DNA of 64,000 nt, taken from the NCBI RefSeq assembly GCF_044324875.1, contig NZ_CP172185.1; one strand, written 5' to 3'. The translations under genes were made by a program, and so were the position numbers. Shown here in pieces: positions 51,117-60,638 of the stretch. This DNA comes from Escherichia coli (GTDB lineage: Bacteria > Pseudomonadota > Gammaproteobacteria > Enterobacterales > Enterobacteriaceae). Position 1 is the first letter of the stretch. Each line of letters begins with the position of its first letter. Below the pieces are notes generated by a model. It was given only the letters and a program-made list of their open reading frames with translations, was not told the origin of the DNA and ran no database searches.

Positions 51117-52682
51117 TCAGTGGTAGTAGCCCGGACCACGCAGGTTTTCATGCTCTGAAGCATATGCCGGATGTTGTTCGCCCTGGCGGGATAATGGAAG
51201 CTCCAGGTTCTCCCGATGGTGACGCAGCAGATTGTCGATAAAGCGTCTGTCAGGGGCGTTATAGTGCAGGGCAACGTAACAGGCCTTTTCCAGCCGTTCC
51301 GGGCCGTATTTTTTCTGAAGTGCCAGCAGCCCCAGAACTGCACGATAAGCCAGTTCCGGATGGGGTTTTGCCTTCAGCATGGATTCAACCACCCGGCCTG
51401 TGGACGGGCCCGTACGTTTTCCCTGCTCGATCAGGCGTTCCGGTGTCCATGTCCCGTGCTGCCGGTGGCGCTCTGGCATGTGAAGCGGATTGGTTGTGTG
51501 TTTATATTCATGTGTGCTGCGCGGATGTTGCGCCACACACTGCCCCTTGTGCCAGAGCTGTACCACCGACTGCCCCGCCTTCAGTGACAGACGCTGACCG
51601 ACCAGTTCGTGTGGAACGGAGTACCAGTGACGGGCATATTCAACGTGGTAGTCAGGGCCAACCTTCACAGCTTTGTATTCCGTGTATTCATAAGGTGCCA
51701 GAGGCAGCGGAGAGAGTGCTGGCGCATCCAGTATGCGGAAGCGTTCTGCACGGGTTTGATTGCCGTACCCCTTCATTGGCCGGTTATTCATGTCTGTCAG
51801 TAACTCCCTAAGGCGCGCATTCAGCGCCCTGAGCGTGTGGAAGGTTTCATTACGGATGCGGGCAAGAAGCCATCGTTCAACGATGAGGACGCCGTTTTCT
51901 GCTTTTGGTTTATCTTTAGGTTTGCGTGGTCGGGCCGGGATGATAACCGTGCCATAGTGCTCAGCCAGTGCCTGATAACTGTCGTTGATGACAGGCTCAT
52001 ATCGATCGGCCTTTTTCACTGCGCTTCTGAGGTTATCGGGGATGAGCAGCTTCGGTACGCCGCCCAGGAAGGTCAGGCAACGGCTGTGGGCATTTAACCA
52101 TGACATCATGTCCTGACCTTCGCACGCTTCAACGTAGGTATAGTTGGACGCCCCCATTACGGCCACGAAGATTGCCACGCGGCGTATCTCACCGGTGTCC
52201 GGATTAATAACAGGAACCGTAGGACCACAGAAGTCGATAAAAAGCTTTTCGCCGGCACGATGCTCCTGGCGCATGGAGAGACGTCGCGTTTTTTTCCACT
52301 CCCGGTAGCAACGGCAGAAGTGCGAGTATCCCATCGCTTTGTTACCCGCCTGTGCCTTGTATTCCATCCACAACAGTTGCCGCGTCACACCTGGTTTTCT
52401 CATTTCCGTATCGAAGTACAACATGTCAGGCATTACAAGCTCTGATGCAAAGGTGTCTTTGGGCGGAAAAATGAGTTTCTCCAGCGTGTCATGGGATATA
52501 TCAGCAGGTAATGGCCATGACAGAGAAGAGGCTTTGAAGCGGGCAAGAACCTCAAAAACGGTTGAGGCGCTGATGTGTAACGTCAGTCCGATACAACGGT
52601 TAGTCAGCTTCTTGTCGAACTTGAGCTGAAGGATCTTAAAACAGGTTTCCATAGTGCTCCTGGATTTTCTCTTTCTGGACAT
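51117..52682 (-). CDS. istA: IS21-family transposase IstA
   Basis: N-terminal HTH then DDE integrase core; likely ATG start at about 52682 (MSRKRK..., with GGAGA RBS) or 52652 (METCFK...); the track start at 52763 is a TTG. Confidence 0.8.
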   Translation of the reverse strand: MSRKRKSRSTMETCFKILQLKFDKKLTNRCIGLTLHISASTVFEVLARFKASSLSWPLPADISHDTLEKLIFPPKDTFASELVMPDMLYFDTEMRKPGVTRQLLWMEYKAQAGNKAMGYSHFCRCYREWKKTRRLSMRQEHRAGEKLFIDFCGPTVPVINPDTGEIRRVAIFVAVMGASNYTYVEACEGQDMMSWLNAHSRCLTFLGGVPKLLIPDNLRSAVKKADRYEPVINDSYQALAEHYGTVIIPARPRKPKDKPKAENGVLIVERWLLARIRNETFHTLRALNARLRELLTDMNNRPMKGYGNQTRAERFRILDAPALSPLPLAPYEYTEYKAVKVGPDYHVEYARHWYSVPHELVGQRLSLKAGQSVVQLWHKGQCVAQHPRSTHEYKHTTNPLHMPERHRQHGTWTPERLIEQGKRTGPSTGRVVESMLKAKPHPELAYRAVLGLLALQKKYGPERLEKACYVALHYNAPDRRFIDNLLRHHRENLELPLSRQGEQHPAYASEHENLRGPGYYH

Positions 52683-53233
52683 TGACGTCTCCACTGGTTT
52701 AAACACGGCAATGGAGACTGTGGTGAAAAGAGTTAATTCCCGGAGTGACTGGCAGGATGCCAATCAATGATCGGAAGCATGCCAAATCGTGATCGATTGT
52801 GATGCCAAACTGTGATCGGAGATGGATGCCAAATCATGATCGATTCGAATGCCAAACTGCGATCGATTCAGATGCCATTTTGCATCTTACTGGTGTGAAA
52901 TTTGACCTATTATATCTTCTGCCGCCCCCTCTGGCTGTATCAAATAAACCCGCAGCAGTCGCCGCGTATTACGGACGGACGCACCGTTCCCATGCTCACT
53001 CGTCACATTCCCCGTATCAGTTTCTCTTACCGTAAGAACGGCTCTGGCTGGCGATAAAACTAACCCGGTCGGGCATTCCCACAGTCTTTAGAGAAAATGT
53101 AATTTACCCCCTGAAACGCGGGCTGTTCCCCCGTCACCTGCGCGCGAAAAACTCACCGTTTTTTGTGCACGCACGAAATCGCCCTCCGGGCGCGCCAGTA
53201 CTGGGCCGGATGGGCAAAAAGTTACTCTAAAAA

Positions 53234-53263
53234 ATTGTGCAAATTTGTGCACTTTTGTGCAGA
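53234..53263. repeat. Three tandem 10-bp repeats with TTGTGCA core
   Basis: attgtgcaaa-tttgtgcact-tttgtgcaga, exact 10-bp periodicity; a fourth TTGTGCAC lies about 70 bp upstream. Confidence 0.5.
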
Positions 53264-53487
53264 TGGACAATAGCGTCAAAAAGAGTGCTTTTGAGAGATT
53301 TTTTATGGCAACTGCGCCGCGTGTATTACGTTTTTTACCATCCCCGCCGCGCATGTACATACTTCATTTTTCTGCCAGACAACAGGGCAACTCCCCGTGA
53401 CTGACAGCCCCAAAAAATCAATGATTGATGTTGCATTTTTGTTAAAGGTTAGACCAGTTGTTTTGGGGCTCTGCCTCATAATCCGGT

Positions 53488-53804
53488 GGGGGGTGCGCAA
53501 ACCGGTTACAACGGTTACAACACTCAAAAACACCACTTAACAGCATGATTTTAATGGATATTGTTTGTAACCGCTTTGCGGTTACACTGCGGTTACAACG
53601 GTTACAGGTTTCAAAAAGTACTTTATTATCAATCAATTAAAAACTTAACCTGTAACCGCCTGTAACCTAACAAAACGGTTACATGTAACCGCGTTGTAAC
53701 CGCTTTTGTAACTCATCGGACCAGTTATAATATATTGATATATAATACAAAAATAAGTAATTTTAAATTTGTAACCGTTGTAACCGCTTTGCGCACCCCC
53801 CCCC
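53488..53804. repeat. Iteron cluster (about 12 GGTTACA/TGTAACC heptamers) bounded by about 33-bp inverted repeats, with AT-rich core; candidate replication origin (ori/crr-like)
   Basis: Left arm ggggggtgcgcaaaccggttacaacggttacaac and right arm gttgtaaccgttgtaaccgctttgcgcaccccccccc are reverse complements; AT-rich segment about 53726-53770; G6 and C9 homopolymer tracts at the ends. Confidence 0.6.
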
Positions 53805-54052
53805 AAACTTTAGCGCGACCCTTTAAAATGTTAATTAAACTCACTTACTCTGTATCTCTCTAGTTAACTCTCTGTTATTGAAATGTATCTCTCCACTGTT
53901 TCACTCTTTCTGATAATCAGGGGAAGCAAAAAATTGATGGCGGCACTACTGCAATATGGCCACCATTGCATTGCTGTTACCGTTGGTTCTGGCCAACAAA
54001 AAAGGTCAGCGGGAAACTGACCTCTTTTGCTGTGAATGCGGCGTTCTGCGGG

Positions 54053-55057
54053 TTACTCTGCTGGCTCTTTTTCTTCGGTGATCACTATGTTGGCTACCGG
54101 GTTAAATCTCATGGCATCTGCCAGATAATCCGGTGCAAAATGTGCGTATGCCATAGTCTGCTGAATTGTCGCATGCCCAAGGATTTTTTGTAGCGCAAGA
54201 ATGTTGCCACCGTTCATCACAAAGTGACTGGCGAATGTATGCCGCAATACATGCGCAGCCTGCCCCCTCGGTAAATCGGGTTTTATTTTTTTTAATGCCC
54301 GGCAAAACTCTCTGTACTTCACATCAAACAGTCGCCCGGTTTCTTTTGTTTTTACGGCATCGCATATTTCCTGCGACACAGGCACCGTTCTTTTTCTACC
54401 GTTTTTGGTTTCCAGAAACGTTATTCTGTTATGAACTATTTGCTCTCCATGCAATCTGCTGGCCTCACTCCAGCGGGCTCCGGTACAAAGACACAAGAGC
54501 GCAACCCTTCGTTGATCTCCATTCAGCCCGTCAAGCAACAATGTGACCTCGTTTTTTGATAAAAAGGCCATTTCCCGCTGCTTTACATAAAGAACAGGAA
54601 TACCACGAACCGGATGCTCTGCATCCCACAAACCGATCTTTTTCAGGGCTGTAAACATCCCCGATAATCTGTTCATGTATCTGTTTGCTGAGGACGGCTT
54701 TAATCCTTCCGCAATTTTCTGCGATCGCCATGCAATGATTTTTAATTTGTTGAGTTCTGCCGCAAACATGTCAGCTCCAAGCTCATTAATAATTTTGCCA
54801 AGTTGCTGTTTATCCGTGTTTGCCTTTCGCCTGTGCTGACCGTGATAGACCCACCACAATTCCAGTAAATCGCTAAGCGTTCTCCGGTCGCGATAGCCCT
54901 GTATAAACTCGCGCTTTTCGGCGTTCGCTATGATGTACCGTTCAGTTGCTGTAGCTATCGATTTTTTGTCAAATATTCTTCTGATGCGCTTCCCTTTACG
55001 TCCGCATGGCCTGATATCGAGCAGCCACCGCCCATCATGCATCTTTCTGATCGGCAT
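54053..55057 (-). CDS. Tyrosine recombinase, P2/186-type integrase family
   Basis: From MPIRKMHDGRWLLDIRPCGRKGKRIRR; C-terminus GQAAHVLRHTFASHFVMNGGNILALQKILGHATIQQTMAYAHFAPDYLADAMRFNP closely resembles the recalled phage 186 integrase; start lies 2-3 nt after the primase stop. Confidence 0.8.
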   Translation of the reverse strand: MPIRKMHDGRWLLDIRPCGRKGKRIRRIFDKKSIATATERYIIANAEKREFIQGYRDRRTLSDLLELWWVYHGQHRRKANTDKQQLGKIINELGADMFAAELNKLKIIAWRSQKIAEGLKPSSANRYMNRLSGMFTALKKIGLWDAEHPVRGIPVLYVKQREMAFLSKNEVTLLLDGLNGDQRRVALLCLCTGARWSEASRLHGEQIVHNRITFLETKNGRKRTVPVSQEICDAVKTKETGRLFDVKYREFCRALKKIKPDLPRGQAAHVLRHTFASHFVMNGGNILALQKILGHATIQQTMAYAHFAPDYLADAMRFNPVANIVITEEKEPAE

Positions 55058-55059
55058 GT

Positions 55060-57753
55060 TTAACTCCCCTCCTTGTAACTGAATATCCGGCATTTCAGTA
55101 CTTCCGGCTCTCTGGCCTCGGCGACCCCTCTTCCGGCGTTTGCCTGTCTGGAGACCTCACTACGAATGGTTTTGCGGCCTGTCAAAGGTCGGGAACGTCC
55201 GGCTGCGAGCAACTCAATCATTTCGCGGTCAGTTCGGATCTCCACGCGGTGAATAGCGGCAGCCTGTGCCAGTTGCGGAATACTGATAGCAATCCCCTCG
55301 CGGCATCCCTTGCCGTAGTGGTTTACACCGTATTTTGTTATGCCGTCCAGATAGTCGAACGCCTCCCAGAACGCTATTACTTCCGGCAAGTCATCCGTTA
55401 CCGCTTTAACTTGTTCCGCTGCCATTCGTTCCAGTTCCTGGCATGTGGCATTAAGCCATTCATCCGGGATATCAATAACGCATTTCAGCGCCCTGACCAG
55501 CGCAATAAGTTGCGCGTGATTTTTGGCAATACGGGGATGGAGAATATTTTCGCAACCGCAAAGGCGGGTCGTTTCAGGCTCTGAGAGCGCCAGAAACATT
55601 TCCATAATTGCCCGTTCACGGCTGACTGCCCGATGAATAAACCCTGACACCTTCTCAACGGGGTAGAGTTCCAGTCGTCTCGCCGCCAGGCGGGTATCAG
55701 GTGAATGGCGTTTTTTATCGGTGTATATGCGTATCAGGCGCTCAATAATTGCAAGTGAGGCGTTTACCCTCGCATTCTGTGCAATCACGATAGCGCCCTT
55801 AAAATCCGGGTCATAGGTGTTGTTATTGTTGGTCTTAACGCCACGAACGCCGATACCGCCGCCGTTATAGAGGCTTTTCAGGTTATCGAAGTCAAACGCA
55901 CCTCTTTTTTGCGCATTGCCTCCCCGGTCTGCTTCAATCAGAACAACAGGTAATCCGGCGACCTGTCCAAAGGTGCGCTTCCAGCCCGCCTCTGATCCTT
56001 TGGTTGGATCAACGCCTTCATAGTTGTCACGACCGCACAACCGCCAGCAAAAATCAATCAATGTTGATTTACCCGTTCCGGGCTCCCCGGTGACTTCAAG
56101 GAAGGGGAAGGATTCTTCTTTATCCCGGATTTGTTCGCTGAACAGGGAGCCCAACCAGAAAGCCAGGGTAATAATTCCTTTTTCACCAAAAGCCAGCCAG
56201 AGATCTTCCACCCAGGACTCTGTAAACTCATCCGGTTTTTTGTAGTTAATCTGTAATGTGGGTTTTTCGCTTAATGGTTTTGCGTTTATGCCATCAATTT
56301 CAAAATAATCTTCGTCATTGATTTCATAAGTTTTTCCCTTGTAAACAGCAATATCATTAAACAGCCATGCCCCAATCGCCTTGTTGTATCCGATAAAATC
56401 CTGACCAATAACCTCTTTTATTGCGGGAAGGTCATTTTTTATTAATGCGTCAAGCTGCGTAGTCGTTCCGGTATAAATACCGCCTTTTGCCACATGCAAC
56501 AGGCGTTTTTTAAATTCAGATGCGGATGTCAATTGTCCTGATGTAAAGGTGTTTTTCACCGTAGCACCATCCGGGAACGTAACACGGAAGTAATACCATG
56601 CTTCATCCGTGTCATTATTTCGAATGTAATAAAGCGACGCTGGGTTACAGTTTGCGATTTCTTTTACTGCGCCAGATTCCTTAAGTGCAATTTTGCGCGC
56701 TTCATCCTCATCAACACTTCTCTCATTCTTGGCACGCTCTACAGCTTTCATATAGCGCTCAATGTCCAGTTTGAACCAGAAAACACGGTTATCAAAAGTA
56801 AAATGAAATTCCTTCCGCTCACGAAAGGAAAATATTATTAGCGCCTTATCTCTCGGAGATTTCGCCAGCAATAAATCACCGTAATGACGGTATCTTTTCA
56901 CATCATGGCCACGCAGCTTTCCGGCGATGTGTAAATCATTCCAGTCGCGTTTATTGTTGTTTTTACCTGGCAACGCCGCTGCCGTTCTCCAGCCGTCTTC
57001 GGCGCTGCGTTCTGCATGTTTTTTCGCGTAACGCTCACCCGCACGCCCGTTATCCAGCGCCCACACAATAACCGGACGGGGATTATCCCCGCACAGCTTC
57101 GCCAGCTCTTCCAGCGCCTTATCAGGGTAGTTCACGGCAGACATGACAGAAACGGCCGCAATGCCATTCTGGTTAAGGCTGATGGCATCAAAGATGCCCT
57201 CACAAATCCAGATTTCTTTGGCCTTGCTTAAATCTGCTCCCGGATAAGCCCACCACAACCCCTTGTAGCTGCCGGAAAAATTCGCCTTGCGCGCGAAGCG
57301 TCCCGGTCGGTCTATGATGCGCTCCCACCACACGCCGTCAGCCAGCGTAAAACGCACAGTAGCGGCCTGTTCGCCGTTTTCCTTGTCCTGGTATCGCTCC
57401 TGAGTAAATGCGCCCTTCAGTGGCCCCACAGCAATATTGCGCGCCTCCTGAAGATAAGCTGCCACCGCTGCATATGGCTCGTCTTTCGTGCTGATATAAC
57501 GATCTGACCATGATGAAAACACATCCGGGTAAAGTTCTTTGGTCAGCAGGTCTGTACCGCATTTATTTTCGCGCCCACAGTGTACGATGTACGGCCTTTC
57601 AAGGCTGGTAAACAACTCTTTCTTTCCACATTGCGGACAAACACCATACCGGAGGTAGTTATTTTCTTCTTTGAAGTTGTAATCACGGATAAGACGGTTA
57701 ATAATCTCTTTTCTGATGTCAGATTTCATATATAAAACTCCACCCCACTGCAC
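55060..57753 (-). CDS. Primase-helicase (P4 alpha-like replication protein)
   Basis: 897-aa ORF with N-terminal zinc finger (CPQCGKK...HCGRENKCG), TOPRIM-like WICEGIFDAISL and P-loop VTGEPGTGKST. Confidence 0.75.
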   Translation of the reverse strand: MQWGGVLYMKSDIRKEIINRLIRDYNFKEENNYLRYGVCPQCGKKELFTSLERPYIVHCGRENKCGTDLLTKELYPDVFSSWSDRYISTKDEPYAAVAAYLQEARNIAVGPLKGAFTQERYQDKENGEQAATVRFTLADGVWWERIIDRPGRFARKANFSGSYKGLWWAYPGADLSKAKEIWICEGIFDAISLNQNGIAAVSVMSAVNYPDKALEELAKLCGDNPRPVIVWALDNGRAGERYAKKHAERSAEDGWRTAAALPGKNNNKRDWNDLHIAGKLRGHDVKRYRHYGDLLLAKSPRDKALIIFSFRERKEFHFTFDNRVFWFKLDIERYMKAVERAKNERSVDEDEARKIALKESGAVKEIANCNPASLYYIRNNDTDEAWYYFRVTFPDGATVKNTFTSGQLTSASEFKKRLLHVAKGGIYTGTTTQLDALIKNDLPAIKEVIGQDFIGYNKAIGAWLFNDIAVYKGKTYEINDEDYFEIDGINAKPLSEKPTLQINYKKPDEFTESWVEDLWLAFGEKGIITLAFWLGSLFSEQIRDKEESFPFLEVTGEPGTGKSTLIDFCWRLCGRDNYEGVDPTKGSEAGWKRTFGQVAGLPVVLIEADRGGNAQKRGAFDFDNLKSLYNGGGIGVRGVKTNNNNTYDPDFKGAIVIAQNARVNASLAIIERLIRIYTDKKRHSPDTRLAARRLELYPVEKVSGFIHRAVSRERAIMEMFLALSEPETTRLCGCENILHPRIAKNHAQLIALVRALKCVIDIPDEWLNATCQELERMAAEQVKAVTDDLPEVIAFWEAFDYLDGITKYGVNHYGKGCREGIAISIPQLAQAAAIHRVEIRTDREMIELLAAGRSRPLTGRKTIRSEVSRQANAGRGVAEAREPEVLKCRIFSYKEGS

Positions 57754-57777
57754 CTTTTGCCGTGGGGTTTTTATTAA

Positions 57778-58077
57778 TTACTCGTTACTTATTGCTTTGG
57801 CAATCCCGGCGGTTTCAGCACTATGCCATGAAAAAATTCCGCCAGAAGTATGCATTCCTGACTTAATCACTCGTAATTCCCGATAAAGAATGTTAGTTAA
57901 TGATTCCATTTCATTAATTTGCACTGGCATTCTCTCACTGGTATTAATTTCACCTGTCAATGCTGAAAGGAGCGCAATAACATTTATTACATCTTCAAGA
58001 TTCTGAATGGAATCTTCCGTGAAAAAACCAGCGTATTCTTTTTTGTATATATTGCGGATATTCTGATTTTCAGACAT
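57778..58077 (-). CDS. Hypothetical protein (99 aa), satellite small-ORF operon
   Basis: ORF co-directional and closely spaced with the primase; no recognisable domain. Confidence 0.4.
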   Translation of the reverse strand: MSENQNIRNIYKKEYAGFFTEDSIQNLEDVINVIALLSALTGEINTSERMPVQINEMESLTNILYRELRVIKSGMHTSGGIFSWHSAETAGIAKAISNE

Positions 58078-58144
58078 AAAAACTCCCCGACCCGTTAAGA
58101 TCGAAATATAAATTTAATTCAGTTATCAGTTGGTAATTCGGTAA

Positions 58145-58363
58145 TCAGTCGGAAAGCTGCGTCACCTTCAACGCTTTGAAATGTGTCATTCCCAGCTCTT
58201 CCAGCCCTTCGGCTGCGCGGCGTATGGCTTCGCCCGGTCCCGTTCCGTATACCGTTGCATGTGCATGTTTGGTTAACCCACGTTTATTAACGGCATAACC
58301 CAACACAAAGAAACGTTTTTCACCACTGCCATTATTTTTACGGGATATTGAACGGCTTTTCAT
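58145..58363 (-). CDS. Hypothetical protein (72 aa)
   Basis: Start overlaps the stop of the upstream ORF (ATGA); operon context. Confidence 0.4.
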   Translation of the reverse strand: MKSRSISRKNNGSGEKRFFVLGYAVNKRGLTKHAHATVYGTGPGEAIRRAAEGLEELGMTHFKALKVTQLSD

Positions 58364-58548
58364 TTCTTCACCTTTACCACTGATGCTGTGAGTTCTTCTT
58401 CTGGCAATTGATATTTCGGCGCAATTTCTTCCGTATACCTGATAGCGTCCCTTGCCGCTTTTCCTTTTGATTTATATTTACGTATCGTGTGGAAGTTTTC
58501 TTCCTCTCCTGTTACCACATTACGCAATTTAATATGAATCTCGTACAT
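58360..58548 (-). CDS. Hypothetical protein (~62 aa)
   Basis: Likely start MYEIHIKLRNVV; track ORF 58360..58578 extended; operon context. Confidence 0.4.
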   Translation of the reverse strand: MYEIHIKLRNVVTGEEENFHTIRKYKSKGKAARDAIRYTEEIAPKYQLPEEELTASVVKVKK

Positions 58549-58550
58549 CG

Positions 58551-58811
58551 TTACCCCTCCATGATTTTTACTGCGCATTTGTGGGTTAATCGCCCCTGTT
58601 TGTCATTGCGGGAATATGCCATACGACAGGCATCACGCCATACATCGTCATAAGTCGGATATTCCCGGGAATGAATCATCTGGCGAACGTCGCCGTTCTG
58701 GTAGTTAATCAGGGTGATAAGGAGCTTAAACATGGCACGCCTCCCGGACACGGATACGGGCAACAAAGACCAGACGAGATGCCGGAAGCAGGGCGCGCGC
58801 TTCGCGCTCAC
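58551..58811 (-). CDS. Hypothetical protein (60-86 aa)
   Basis: ORF in the operon between alpA and the primase; overlaps the next ORF, exact start unclear. Confidence 0.3.
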   Translation of the reverse strand: MSAKRAPCFRHLVWSLLPVSVSGRRAMFKLLITLINYQNGDVRQMIHSREYPTYDDVWRDACRMAYSRNDKQGRLTHKCAVKIMEG

Positions 58812-59253
58812 TGGCAGCGGTAACGGTATGAAGGCGGATATTTTTACCGTGGCACTGCATAAAGCGCCAGATAAAATCAGGGCGTGTTGATATAGCCATT
58901 TTGGCGGCTCCTTCTACTGATTTACGGAGTCTCGCCAGCACGCTGCTAAACATGGTGGCGGGACGTAACAGGGTTAGCAGACTGGCGTAGAAGAAACCAG
59001 CGAGCGCAAAGGCTCCCCCATTACGCCCCGCCATAATACGGGGTAGGGTGGAATTACGGGCACAAAAAAACCGCATTACGGAAATATAGCGGCTACCCGC
59101 TTCTACTATCAGGCTGCTAAACCCGGCACCCGCTTTATGAGGTGCGGGCAAACGATACGCCATGACAAAAAAGCGAGTCAAGCAATATTGCAAATTATTT
59201 TTGCGCGATTGCGCTGAGTGATTGATTTTTAAGAGTAAAAAAGTCATAATCAT
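58726..59253 (-). CDS. Hypothetical protein (up to 175 aa)
   Basis: Longest ORF in the alpA-proximal part of the operon; start uncertain; overlaps 58551..58811 in another frame (possible frameshift or overlapping genes). Confidence 0.3.
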   Translation of the reverse strand: MIMTFLLLKINHSAQSRKNNLQYCLTRFFVMAYRLPAPHKAGAGFSSLIVEAGSRYISVMRFFCARNSTLPRIMAGRNGGAFALAGFFYASLLTLLRPATMFSSVLARLRKSVEGAAKMAISTRPDFIWRFMQCHGKNIRLHTVTAASEREARALLPASRLVFVARIRVREACHV

Positions 59254-59806
59254 TTCTGGCTATTGTTTCTTATTGTTGGTTTCAGGTGCACTAAATGCAC
59301 ATCCTTGACTGGTTGGCTCGCTGGCTTTAGCGAGCTTCTTTTTTGCTCTGCTGTCAGTGATCGGCCTCCTTCCCTCACATGTAGTCATGTGCTCATTCCA
59401 GTCAGGTGGATAATGCTGTATTACCGGACATCCGGTTATGATGTTTAAAGCGTTTGTTTGTTTATGCCACGTGGAGAATATACCCCCACCGCCATTACTT
59501 GTATTTATCATAACAGTTCACCCAATTCGGTTAATGTAACCGGAATAACTCAATTTCATACACTGTAAATAAATGCTGATTTTAAACTTAGCTCCTTGGA
59601 ATATATTTCTTACGTGTGACGCACAGGTGAAAATATCCCTCTGATAGTCCATTTTCTTTTATTTTGTCACATCTGTTTACTCCGGTTCCCTTAACAAGGG
59701 TAGAGCATCTTTTAAACCATGAATGCATCTTCGGTTAAGTGATGTTTCTTATTGTATGAAATATTTAGGCGCATATCGCGCCATGCTGACTATAAAATGA
59801 AAATAA

Positions 59807-60028
59807 TTAAGCCTGAAAACGTTGTTGTTTTCTTTCTTCTATCCAGTCGATAATTTCCTCTTCAACCCATGCAACCGCACGAGGGCCTATTTTTATTGGT
59901 TTGGGGAATATATCAGATTTTATATCTTCGTAAATTCGAGCTCTTGATCTCCCTGTGATTTCAATGACTCTGGGGAGTCTTATTAATTTTTGAATCCGCC
60001 TTTCGCTGGTCTGTGAGTATGCTGACAT
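59807..60028 (-). CDS. alpA: AlpA-family transcriptional regulator / excisionase
   Basis: 73-aa ORF; LIRLPRVIEITGRSRARIYEDIKSDIFPKPIKIGPRAVAWVEEEIIDWI matches the AlpA HTH consensus. Confidence 0.8.
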   Translation of the reverse strand: MSAYSQTSERRIQKLIRLPRVIEITGRSRARIYEDIKSDIFPKPIKIGPRAVAWVEEEIIDWIEERKQQRFQA

Positions 60029-60638
60029 ATTGGCCTCCTGTATATGCTGACATTTTACGTTAGCTCACAGCGGGAGCATGTAAGATCTCGCGGTCGTCTG
60101 CGGGACGAGAAAAATCATAAACAACGAAAAGCGGATTTGTAAATCAGGTCGATTTTCAGGCGGGGTTGACATGGACAGTGAGATTTGTTCCATGTGTGCA
60201 ATATACATTTTAGGACCACTTTAAGCCACTTTAAACCGCCAGAAAGCGACAAAGAATAACAAGTTAGTGCCAGAAAGGTTTGCTGACTTACCCTTTTAGG
60301 TACCAGAAAAAGCCCTTTCAGGTCGGTGTAATGCTTGTGAACGCTGAAATAGTGGTTTCTGAAAACAAAAAAAGAATTGAAAATGTGATACATATCACAA
60401 AATAATATCGATAAAATAGTTTGATTTTTTTGTTTTTATTAAAAGCACTGGTTAATTGTAAAAAATTAATTATAAATCAAATGGATATATCTGTTTTTTT
60501 AGGGTAAAAATCACTAGGTGCTTTTAGCAGTATCTTATTCTATTGATTTTAAAAGATAAAAAAATCGGCGTGTCCACATATTGTCCACGCCTTGAGTTTA
60601 ATTCAGCCGCTTGGGATAGTTTAGTTTGTTGAGTTGAT

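What the first reader, a model, noticed from the sequence alone, without database searches (positions are those of the whole stretch)
54053..57753. Second integrase (P2/186-type) translationally coupled to the primase-helicase inside an element that already has a P4-type integrase
The 186-like recombinase start lies 2-3 nt after the primase stop, in the same operon, while a separate P4-type integrase sits next to argW. Two tyrosine recombinases of different lineages in one 15-kb element suggests a composite or tandem element, or a recombinase co-opted for another function.
Basis: partly seen in the sequence, partly recalled or inferred. Interest (0 to 1): 0.5.

Follow-up and report, generated by a model that had tools for sequence, protein, structure and literature searches.

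The report
Helper-phage integrase kept inside a satellite
A small phage-parasite island at the E. coli argW tRNA gene carries, besides the integrase that inserts it there, a second intact integrase derived from its P2-like helper phages but with no attachment site of its own, which suggests the parasite acts on the helper's integration or excision.

Summary
A 334-aa P2-type tyrosine integrase (Int2, 54053-55057, minus strand) starts 2 nt after the primase-helicase stop, behind a GGAGG. It lies inside a 15.3-kb argW island (46745-62100) that has its own P4-type integrase.

It is not a tandem or composite element. There is one att pair. The same primase-Int2-origin-ogr backbone occurs in 64 of 5426 complete E. 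coli genomes, and in Salmonella and Yersinia. It appears with different terminal integrases, insertion sites and replicases.

Int2 comes in at least three E. coli alleles, about 54% identical to each other. Each is 77-89% identical to the integrase of a different P88-like (Xuanwuvirus-type) P2-like phage. These are the same phages that share a cos-like segment with the island.

The alleles are mosaics. The body is phage-like (allele B 83-100% nt identical), while the flanks and the C-terminal tail are satellite-specific.

The island carries no phage attP core or allele-linked arm sites. Catalytic residues are intact and the satellite-specific part is under purifying selection.

Best reading (inferred, about 0.4): an orphan helper-type integrase, made with the replication operon, that acts in trans on helper att sites, most likely excising the prophage with helper Cox. 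I found no description of it in the literature searched.

The parts
54053..55057 (-). Int2: 334-aa P2-type tyrosine integrase, allele A; orphan, with no adjacent attP
   Evidence: ORF and junction. Pfam Int_N + Phage_integrase. Catalytic R195/K218/H269/R272/H295/Y304. 80-82% identical to Xuanwuvirus/Chuche integrases over residues 1-321.
55060..57729 (-). Toprim primase-helicase (889 aa from the annotated ATG; the ORF extends to GTG at 57753); Int2 is coupled to its stop codon
   Evidence: phrog_1139 DNA primase 2e-297. RefSeq 'toprim domain-containing protein'. TAA-AC-ATG junction.
55055..55075 (-). Coupling junction: AAGGAGGGGAG Shine-Dalgarno, primase TAA (55062-55060), 2-nt gap, Int2 ATG (55057-55055)
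   Evidence: Sequence read. The same 2-nt gap (or an 11-nt overlap) occurs in other E. coli and Yersinia loci.
53990..54030 (.). Bidirectional intrinsic terminator hairpin (AGGTCAG-TTTCCCG-CTGACC + T run) ending the primase-Int2 operon
   Evidence: conserved in the alignment.
53495..53810 (.). Probable replication origin: 13-16 GGTTACA/TGTAACC iterons around an AT-rich centre, flanked by inverted G-run/GCGCAAA repeats
   Evidence: The iterons are kept across Int2 alleles. Their flanking base co-varies with the primase. They are absent from Salmonella satellites that have other primases.
53102..53262 (.). cos-like segment shared with P88-like helper phages (lies inside a probably spurious 90-aa ORF)
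   Evidence: 77-82% nt identity to unannotated segments of P88, 569R5, PhiR44_2, Shae_phiSM, Chuche, 500465-2 (record positions 133-293) and phiT5282H. Window coordinates are mapped by offset from L001.
50048..50230 (-). ogr/delta-like zinc-finger late-gene activator
   Evidence: RefSeq annotation; phrog_603; Pfam Ogr_Delta in related loci.
47618..49599 (-). 236-aa protein of unknown family plus a 423-aa diverged P2 gpN-like major capsid homologue
   Evidence: TIGR01551 1.4e-39, below cut-off. phrog_70 6e-78. The pair is conserved in all related loci.
60639..61901 (-). Int1: P4-type terminal integrase, the enzyme that fits the argW insertion
   Evidence: NF007246 1.4e-63. Adjacent to tRNA-Arg. 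Replaced by a 24%-identical integrase in hpt/gcd copies of the same satellite.
59807..60028 (-). AlpA/Vis-type excisionase-regulator
   Evidence: phrog_2790 / phrog_66; Pfam Phage_AlpA in L013 and L017.
62079..62154 (-). argW tRNA-Arg(CCT); its 3' end is the island-proximal att repeat (ATGGTGTCCCCTGCAGGAATC)
46745..46765 (.). Distal att repeat (ATGGTGTCCCTGCAGAAATC), the far end of the island

Best explanation
Int2 is an 'orphan' helper-type integrase.

Shown. It is a fixed gene of a family of P2-dependent satellites, placed just after the replicase and before the origin. It is not the enzyme that inserts the island; the terminal P4-type integrase does that. Its core-binding and catalytic parts derive from, and are repeatedly exchanged with, integrases of P88-like (Xuanwuvirus-type) Peduoviridae. 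Those phages also share a cos-like segment with the island, so they are its likely helpers. The island itself has no matching attP core or allele-linked arm sites.

Inferred. When the satellite's replication operon is switched on, Int2 is made together with the primase and acts in trans on the helper's attachment sites. The most likely reaction is excision of a derepressed helper prophage (attL x attR), together with helper Cox and host IHF. The reasoning is that in P2-like phages Cox shuts off Pc, the promoter that makes Int, so Int should be limiting exactly when the helper is derepressed. Swapping the Int2 body, probably by recombination with co-resident helpers, keeps its site specificity matched to the local helper.
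For: (1) Conserved backbone gene.
- 64 of 5426 complete E. coli genomes carry the origin-Int2-primase block, and 'phage integrase' is annotated after the primase in every listed row.
- The same order occurs in Yersinia and Salmonella, even behind two other replicase types, DUF927 and D5_N.

(2) Not the insertion enzyme.
- Alleles A and B each occur at both argW and hpt/gcd.
- The terminal integrases of the two sites are only 24% identical.

(3) Helper origin.
- Allele A is 80-82% identical to Chuche/Xuanwuvirus integrases. Allele B is 89% identical to 569R5/P88-type. Allele C is 77% identical to phiT5282H/SEN4. In every case the match stops at residue 319-321.
- The same phages share a 160-bp cos-like segment with the satellite.

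(4) Mosaic structure.
- Satellites A and B are about 90% nt identical on both sides of the gene but 33-67% identical in the int body.
- The allele B body is 83-100% nt identical to the phage gene, and 99% aa identical over residues 160-300.
- In four body clusters, satellite-tailed and phage-tailed integrases group together.

(5) No cis site.
- The phage P-arm repeats are encoded in the phage int 3' end, which the satellite replaces.
- The A-type core, AAAATCCTTGTTGATGAAAA at the pdxB start, is absent from the window at up to 3 mismatches.
- No phage attP segment is found in the satellites.
- No noncoding segment co-varies with the Int2 allele.
- The iterons follow the primase, not Int2.

(6) Function retained.
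- The catalytic hexad is intact in all alleles.
- dN/dS is 0.06-0.20 in the satellite-specific C-terminal part, which holds Tyr304.

(7) Ecology.
- A B-type phage is present in 8 of 22 B-allele satellite genomes, versus 1 of 28 A-allele, 0 of the other alleles listed, and 5.5% of genomes without the satellite. Fisher p = 5e-4 and 1.5e-5.
- An A-type phage is present in about 17 of 64 satellite genomes versus 5.4%.

(8) Rationale.
- Cox represses Pc, the promoter of C and int, and directs excision. Cox also activates P4 (PMC3936717).
Against: - No experiment exists. The trans reaction and its direction are inference.
- The A-type phage is as common with B-allele as with A-allele satellites (7/28 vs 10/36).
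- The strain closest to the window has an empty flk-pdxB site.
- In the P2-P4 paradigm the satellite exploits an unexcised prophage (my knowledge), so helper excision is not obviously needed.
- The E. coli A/B alleles carry W11 at a position proposed to discriminate arm-site type, Y in P2-type and W in 186-type (PMC3448106). Their first 45 residues are only 67-73% identical to the phage proteins, so binding to helper arm sites is not assured.
- The replaced C-terminal tail could alter activity.
- Allele matching and co-occurrence could arise passively, from gene conversion between co-resident homologous genes.
- Low dN/dS in the body may be inherited from the phage donors.
Confidence: 0.4

Rival explanations
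1. Interference. Int2 is used against the helper. It may compete for helper arm or core sites, form mixed complexes with helper Int through its altered tail, or drive the wrong reaction (re-integration). The effect would be to keep helper DNA out of the packaging pool while its late genes serve the satellite.
For: - The C-terminal tail is satellite-specific and conserved across genera.
- The N-terminal signature is altered in E. coli alleles.
- The body matches helper specificity.
- The satellite also has capsid-like genes, which suggests active hijacking.
Against: - A pure binding competitor would not need the catalytic residues, yet all six are kept, including Tyr304 in the satellite-specific segment.
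- With Cox present, integration is inhibited (PMC3936717).
Confidence: 0.15
2. Passenger kept fresh by gene conversion. An integrase captured long ago has no role in the satellite. It stays intact because recombination with helper int genes keeps overwriting it.
For: - Long tracts are 95-100% nt identical to a phage gene.
- Co-residence with B-type phages provides the opportunity.
- Low dN/dS in the body may be inherited.
Against: - The 3' segment that is never exchanged (aa 300-334, with the Tyr nucleophile) has dN/dS 0.06-0.20 across E. coli, Salmonella and Yersinia.
- None of the loci I fetched has an Int2 pseudogene flag, and 'phage integrase' is annotated in all 56 listed full-length hits.
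- The gene keeps its position behind three unrelated replicases.
- Coupling to the primase is conserved.
Confidence: 0.15
3. Second integration module. Int2 lets the satellite insert at the helper's attB (pdxB, dmsA region, and so on) or into helper attL/attR, through a cryptic attP on the satellite.
For: - The integrase is complete and heterobivalent.
- argW-type islands carry one P2-type arm-site pair, TGTCCAC-N4-TGTCCAC, at 60571-60589.
Against: - The window has no core, and no allele-linked cis segment exists.
- The arm pair follows the argW int1 module, not the Int2 allele, and is missing from hpt/gcd copies.
- In every locus examined Int2 is internal and never at an element end.
Confidence: 0.1
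4. Replication accessory. Int2 resolves satellite multimers into monomer circles for replication or cos packaging, as Cre or Xer do.
For: The gene sits between the primase and its origin, in the same operon.
Against: - Swapping core-binding and catalytic domains between alleles only 33-60% identical would break recognition of a fixed site, yet no nearby sequence co-varies with the allele.
- The protein keeps an arm-binding N-domain typical of directional integrases.
- In Salmonella it follows other replicases after a 400-455-bp gap.
Confidence: 0.07
5. Composite or tandem element: two islands, each with its own integrase, fused at argW.
For: Two tyrosine recombinases of different lineages sit within 15 kb.
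Against: - There is one att pair only.
- The gene order is identical in 64 genomes at two sites.
- The size, 12.7 kb without the IS, is that of a single satellite.
Confidence: 0.02

Closest known systems
Integrases of P2-like phages (P2 Int; closest are P88-like/Xuanwuvirus phages such as Chuche, P884B11, PhiR44_2, vB_EcoM-569R5)
   Same: Same fold and domain order: arm-binding N-terminus, Int_N core-binding domain, catalytic domain. Same catalytic residues. 77-89% identity to particular phage integrases and about 51-55% to P2 Int.
   Different: No attP follows the gene. The last ~13 residues, which in the phages are encoded by the P-arm repeats, are replaced by a satellite-specific tail. The gene is internal to a satellite and coupled to a primase, instead of following the C repressor at a prophage end.
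Satellite phage P4 and P4-like satellites
   Same: A 12-13-kb island at a tRNA gene with a P4-type integrase, AlpA, a primase-helicase with an iteron origin, an Ogr/Delta-type activator and a cos site like that of a P2-like helper.
   Different: No Psu, Sid or epsilon homologue was detected (only the 236-aa protein, the 99-aa ORF and the small ORFs were screened, with no hits). Instead there is a gpN-like capsid homologue plus a 236-aa partner, in a different gene order. P4 has one integrase, and published satellite-finding pipelines assume one and discard extras (PMC10085698; PMC8628076).
P2 Cox / P4 epsilon mutual derepression circuit
   Same: Satellite and helper exchange regulators. Cox represses the helper's Pc (C and int), directs excision and activates P4 (PMC3936717). 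A Salmonella relative of this satellite has a Pfam 'Derepression' gene just upstream of its primase.
   Different: In the known circuit the satellite supplies regulators, not a recombinase. A satellite supplying the helper's integrase would be an added layer. It is untested here.
Vibrio PLE and ICP1 PexA (satellite integrase using a phage-encoded directionality factor; my knowledge)
   Same: Site-specific recombination split between satellite and helper.
   Different: The logic is reversed. There the phage supplies the accessory factor for the satellite's own excision. Here the satellite would supply the recombinase for the helper's sites.

Membership tests
Tyrosine site-specific recombinases, P2-type heterobivalent phage integrases | Catalytic domain with R-K-H-x-x-R-H/W-Y residues | tested here: met
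   R195, K218, H269, R272, H295, Y304; PF00589 6.7e-19.
Tyrosine site-specific recombinases, P2-type heterobivalent phage integrases | Core-binding domain (Int_N) plus an N-terminal arm-binding domain homologous to P2 Int | tested here: met
   PF24624 1.5e-23. Residues 1-56 align with P2, Chuche and 569R5 Int. W11 replaces the Y typical of P2-type arm binders.
Tyrosine site-specific recombinases, P2-type heterobivalent phage integrases | Cognate attP next to the gene: arm-type direct repeats on both sides of a core identical to attB | tested here: not met
   The phage arms lie in the phage int 3' end, which the satellite lacks. The A-type core is absent. blastn-short finds no attP. No 186-type arms.
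Tyrosine site-specific recombinases, P2-type heterobivalent phage integrases | Gene lies at the edge of the integrated element, and its type predicts the insertion site | tested here: not met
   Internal in all loci examined. Alleles A and B each occur at both argW and hpt/gcd.
Tyrosine site-specific recombinases, P2-type heterobivalent phage integrases | Catalyses integration or excision with IHF and Cox | not testable with these tools
   Needs in vivo or in vitro recombination assays.
P4-like satellites (markers: int, psu, delta, sid, alpA, epsilon, alpha) | Integrase, AlpA, primase-helicase and Delta/Ogr-type activator clustered in about 10-15 kb | tested here: met
P4-like satellites (markers: int, psu, delta, sid, alpha, epsilon, alpA) | Psu and Sid capsid-size genes and epsilon antirepressor | tested here: inconclusive
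   The 236-aa and 99-aa proteins and the small ORFs have no PHROG hits (the 236-aa also no NCBIfam hit). A gpN-like capsid homologue is present instead. No profile-profile or fold comparison with Sid, Psu or epsilon was run.
Xer / Cre-type resolvases | Simple recombinase without an arm-binding domain, acting on a fixed site beside the gene | tested here: not met
   NCBIfam Xer models score far below cut-off, 72-79 bits against 220-335. An arm-binding N-terminus is present. No allele-linked site exists.

The most novel reading that the evidence does not exclude
A family of P2-dependent satellites keeps an attP-less copy of its helper's integrase and uses it as a trans-acting tool on the helper genome: excising the prophage, or otherwise setting its integration state. 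It retunes the enzyme's site specificity by swapping in the core-binding and catalytic body of whichever helper integrase it meets. That would be a satellite-encoded recombinase directed at another element's att sites, a kind of satellite-helper interaction I did not find described.
Probability: 0.35. Interest if true: 0.8.

Novelty: new variant of a known kind. Interest (0 to 1): 0.6.

Why it matters
Satellite-finding pipelines assume one integrase per satellite and discard extras, so this conserved second integrase has gone unremarked.

If it acts on the helper's att sites, satellites would control more than helper gene expression and capsid size. They would also control whether the helper is integrated or free. 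That affects prophage induction, helper loss, and the co-transfer of the toxin-antitoxin and defence cargo these islands carry in E. coli, Salmonella and Yersinia.

The mosaic alleles also offer a natural experiment. The arm-binding end, the tail and the specificity-determining body of a heterobivalent integrase have been recombined repeatedly, which is useful for understanding and engineering integrase specificity.

Tried and rejected
1. **Tandem TGTCCAC-N4-TGTCCAC at 60571-60589 as an Int2 attP arm.** It matches the Chuche P arm at 18 of 20 positions. But it travels with the argW-type int1 module whatever the Int2 allele, and it is absent from hpt/gcd satellites. It also forms the int1 terminator hairpin, with compensatory stem changes in Yersinia. 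The 'P-prime' copy at 60825 and the adjacent cox-box are not conserved. I keep it as unexplained, not as evidence of an attP.

2. **GGTTACA iterons as Int2 arm sites.** Rejected. They are constant across Int2 alleles, their flanks co-vary with the primase, and they are absent where the primase type differs.

3. **'GCCAT' repeats just after Int2 as 186-type arm sites.** The W11 residue prompted this. Rejected. The variation there has a codon-like pattern. The region is a conserved 27-codon ORF on the other strand, and no 186-type consensus is present.

4. **P2 cos (GGCGAGGCGGGGAAAGCAC).** Not present at up to 3 mismatches. The cos-like segment was found instead by homology to P88-like phages.

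5. **Scan of genome contigs with the primase.** It returned only two loci. The Thauera relative has no integrase after its primase.

6. **Prophage at pdxB in the strain closest to the window.** The site is empty.

7. **Literature.** Searches for a second integrase in P4-like satellites, for satellite-driven helper excision by an integrase, and for gpN-encoding satellites found nothing specific.


Full report
**1. Observation**

All the genes below are on the minus strand.

- An 889-aa toprim primase-helicase occupies 55060-57729. The mechanical ORF runs on to a GTG at 57753.
- It ends with TAA at 55062-55060. Two bases later, ATG at 55057 opens a 334-aa ORF that ends at 54053. AAGGAGGGGAG lies just upstream.
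- The scan finds no terminator-like site on the minus strand at the junction between the two genes. A strong hairpin plus T-run follows the second gene.
- The protein has Pfam Int_N and Phage_integrase domains and matches PHROG 'integrase' at 2e-74. NCBIfam Xer and integron models score far below their cut-offs.
- It has the full catalytic set R195, K218, H269, R272, H295, Y304.
- A different integrase, of P4 type, lies at 60639-61901 next to tRNA-Arg(CCT) at 62080-62154. The two proteins share no BLASTP similarity beyond a weak match in the N-terminal 36 residues (E 0.008).

**2. The element**

- The argW 3' end (ATGGTGTCCCCTGCAGGAATC) recurs imperfectly at 46745-46765, so the island spans 46745-62100.
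- Comparison with a 99.5%-identical island in E. coli ECCNB12-2 shows that 50246-52884 is an IS21-family insertion with a 5-bp duplication. The native element is about 12.7 kb.
- From argW inwards the order is:
  - Int1
  - an AlpA-type regulator
  - an Icd-like gene and several small ORFs
  - the primase
  - Int2
  - a terminator shared with a small convergent ORF
  - an iteron-rich origin
  - a cos-like segment
  - an ogr/delta zinc-finger gene
  - a 236-aa protein and a diverged P2 gpN-like capsid homologue
  - MazEF

- No second att pair was found.

**3. Int2 is a backbone gene, not a second island**

- The block origin-Int2-primase is present in 64 of 5426 complete E. coli genomes. 'Phage integrase' is annotated after the primase in every listed row.
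- The same satellite sits at two chromosomal sites. At argW it has the P4-type Int1 plus AlpA. Between hpt and gcd it has a different terminal integrase (24% identical), a 350-aa protein and an HTH regulator.
- Related satellites in Yersinia, in Salmonella and in another E. coli lineage keep the order primase-Int2-Ogr/Delta. In Salmonella the replicase is of another family (Zn-ribbon primase/DUF927, or D5_N/DUF5906) and a 400-455-bp gap replaces the coupling.

**4. Alleles and their origin**

- Int2 exists in at least three E. coli alleles.
  - Allele A: the window, L001, L002, L006.
  - Allele B: L007-L009, 54% identical to A.
  - Allele C: P0036/L013.
- Alleles A and B each occur at both insertion sites.
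- Each allele is closest to the integrase of a different group of P2-like phages.
  - Allele A is 80-82% identical to Chuche, Xuanwuvirus P884B11, PhiR44_2 and Shae_phiSM.
  - Allele B is 89% identical to vB_EcoM-569R5, 705R2 and a P88-type prophage.
  - Allele C is 77% identical to phiT5282H and SEN4/5.
- In all cases the match ends at residue 319-321.
- A-type phages are prophages at the 5' end of pdxB. B-type phages lie upstream of dmsA.

**5. Mosaic structure**

- In nucleotide alignments, satellites A and B are about 90% identical in the primase 3' end and again from int nucleotide ~907 onwards. Between, they are 33-67% identical.
- The allele B body is 83-100% identical to the phage 569R5 gene. 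That is 99% at protein level over residues 160-300.
- The last ~30 residues, including Tyr304, and the tail (ADAMRFNP[VI]AN...EPAE) are satellite-specific. They are recognisably shared with Salmonella and Yersinia satellites (ADAMKFNPVAG..., ADAIKFNPTAN...).
- Phage integrases end instead in ...LNPLxGGxSVHxxST. That sequence is the translation of the attP P-arm repeats TGTCCAC-N4-TGTCCAC, which lie inside the phage int 3' end. It matches the published P2-type arm consensus tgTGGaCa (PMC3448106).
- Among the best 120 cluster representatives, 33 have satellite-type tails and 90 have phage-type tails. Four body clusters (75% identity) contain both kinds.
- Every satellite-tailed protein is closer to a phage-tailed one (65-94%, all but one at least 73%) than to satellite proteins of other clusters (49-59%).
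- I verified the genomic context for P0036, P0012, P0042 and P0044 (satellites) and P0018 (prophage). The remaining tail classes are inference.

**6. No cis site**

- The satellite lacks the phage arms next to Int2.
- The 20-bp core of the A-type att site is AAAATCCTTGTTGATGAAAA, derived from Chuche attP, a lysogen junction and an empty site. It is absent from the whole window at up to 3 mismatches.
- blastn-short of both phage att regions against the satellites gives only chance-level words.
- Sliding identity between satellites that differ in Int2 allele shows no noncoding segment co-varying with the allele. The only other repeatedly variable piece is the 99-101-aa ORF upstream of the primase.
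- The 13-16 GGTTACA iterons after Int2 are constant across alleles. Their flanking base changes with primase divergence. They are missing where the primase family differs, so they mark the origin.

**7. Helper identity**

A 160-bp noncoding segment (window about 53102-53262) is 77-82% identical to unannotated segments of exactly the P88-like phages whose integrases match Int2. These include a record where the segment lies at positions 133-293, next to the genome end. I read it as cos. The P2 cos sequence itself is absent.

**8. Selection**

- The never-exchanged 3' part of Int2 has dN/dS 0.06-0.20 between E. coli alleles and against Salmonella and Yersinia.
- Within allele B, dN/dS is 0.06-0.12 at dS 0.23-0.63.
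- The body values may partly be inherited from phage donors.

**9. Co-occurrence**

I used chimeric queries (primase plus a phage marker) and compared places-per-genome between searches.

- An A-type phage integrase is present in about 17 of 64 satellite genomes against about 5.4% of the rest (Fisher 5e-8; 0.003 after rough clone collapsing). There is no allele preference: 7 of 28 A-allele versus 10 of 36 other satellite genomes.
- A B-type phage is present in 8 of 22 B-allele satellite genomes, 1 of 28 A-allele and none of the other-allele genomes listed. The background is 5.5% (p = 5e-4 and 1.5e-5; 0.003 when collapsed by lineage). A marker made only of phage-specific flanks picked out the same genomes.
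- The strain closest to the window has an empty pdxB site.
- Clonality limits these statistics. Gene conversion during co-residence could produce the B pattern without any function.

**10. Mechanism**

What is shown:
- Int2 is conserved, intact and selected.
- It is expressed from the replicase operon by its position.
- It derives from helper integrases and has been exchanged with them repeatedly.
- It is unrelated to where the island inserts.
- It has no cognate site in cis.

What is inferred: it acts in trans on helper att sites.

I favour excision of the helper prophage for three reasons.
- In P2-like phages Cox represses Pc, which drives C and int.
- Cox is the excision directionality factor, and it inhibits integration.
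- Cox is also the signal that activates P4 (PMC3936717).

So a satellite switched on in a derepressed lysogen would meet Cox but little Int. One Salmonella relative encodes a Pfam 'Derepression' protein just upstream of its primase, which fits an operon that derepresses the helper and then supplies Int.

Confidence is about 0.4. The rivals are interference with the helper, a passenger gene refreshed by gene conversion, a cryptic second integration module, and multimer resolution. They are weighed in the Rival explanations section. The cis-acting ones are weakened by sections 3 to 6.

**11. Comparison with what is known, and novelty**

- Int2 is a member of the P2-type integrase protein family by sequence. 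It fails two features that define a phage integrase module: an adjacent attP, and a terminal position that predicts the insertion site.
- The island resembles P4-like satellites. It lacks detectable Psu, Sid and epsilon, and it has a gpN-like gene.
- The satellite literature I could read treats multiple integrases as artefacts of neighbouring elements or removes them (PMC8628076; PMC10085698). It does not mention this gene.
- I classify the finding as a new variant of a known kind, with interest 0.6.

Noticed in passing
window 60568-60601: A perfect P2-type arm-site pair, GCGTGTCCACATATTGTCCACGCC, lies 50 nt past the Int1 stop. It matches 18 of 20 positions of the phage Chuche P arm. A P2 cox-box (TTAAACTCA, minus strand) follows directly. 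The pair is conserved in all argW-type satellites including Yersinia, with compensatory changes in the flanking stem, so it doubles as the int1 terminator hairpin. It is absent from hpt/gcd-type satellites. It may be a binding site for Int2 or for helper Int near the alpA control region.
   Followed up: partly
window 50246-52884: An IS21-family element (istA 548-aa ORF, istB 332-aa ORF) with a 5-bp target duplication is inserted 15 bp upstream of the ogr/delta start codon. It separates that gene from its upstream region and from cos. This copy of the satellite may therefore be crippled. The 99.5%-identical island in strain ECCNB12-2 lacks the IS.
   Followed up: yes
window 47618-49599: The satellite encodes a diverged homologue of the P2 major capsid protein gpN (423 aa, with a ~118-residue N-terminal extension; phrog_70 6e-78; below the TIGR01551 cut-off). 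A conserved 236-aa protein with no family match precedes it. This is unlike P4 (Sid/Psu) and suggests a different way of taking over or rebuilding the helper capsid.
   Followed up: partly
window 53937-54020 (+): A conserved 27-codon ORF (MAALLQYGHHCIAVTVGSGQQKRSAGN) converges on Int2 and shares its terminator. Substitutions among satellites follow a codon-like pattern. It is not annotated in RefSeq. It could be a small membrane peptide or toxin.
   Followed up: partly
window 53495-53810: The origin-like region has 13-16 GGTTACA iterons in both orientations around an AT-rich centre. It is bracketed by inverted GGGGGGGGTGCGCAAA / TTTGCGCACCCCCC repeats. The base before each iteron (C or A) changes together with primase divergence.
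   Followed up: partly
window 57778-58077: The 99-aa ORF immediately upstream of the primase is the only other hypervariable gene among otherwise near-identical satellites (49-71% nt identity where the flanks are above 95%). It has no family match. It occupies the position where a Salmonella relative has a Pfam 'Derepression' gene, so it may be a helper-specific antirepressor.
   Followed up: partly
window 53088-53360: The 90-aa 'hypothetical protein' annotated here in RefSeq relatives overlaps the 160-bp segment shared with P88-like phages. It is probably not a gene but the cos region.
   Followed up: partly
window 46982-47574: A MazE/MazF (PemK) toxin-antitoxin pair sits at the distal end of the satellite in E. 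coli and Salmonella copies. Salmonella relatives add HigB/HigA-like and HicA/HicB pairs right after Int2.
   Followed up: no
window 37817-45730: A 2637-aa ORF just outside the island is annotated in the near-identical strain as the phase-variable autotransporter adhesin UpaE. An HTH regulator precedes it. In strain TOE17 the argW satellite instead abuts dsdC directly, so this flank is itself variable.
   Followed up: no
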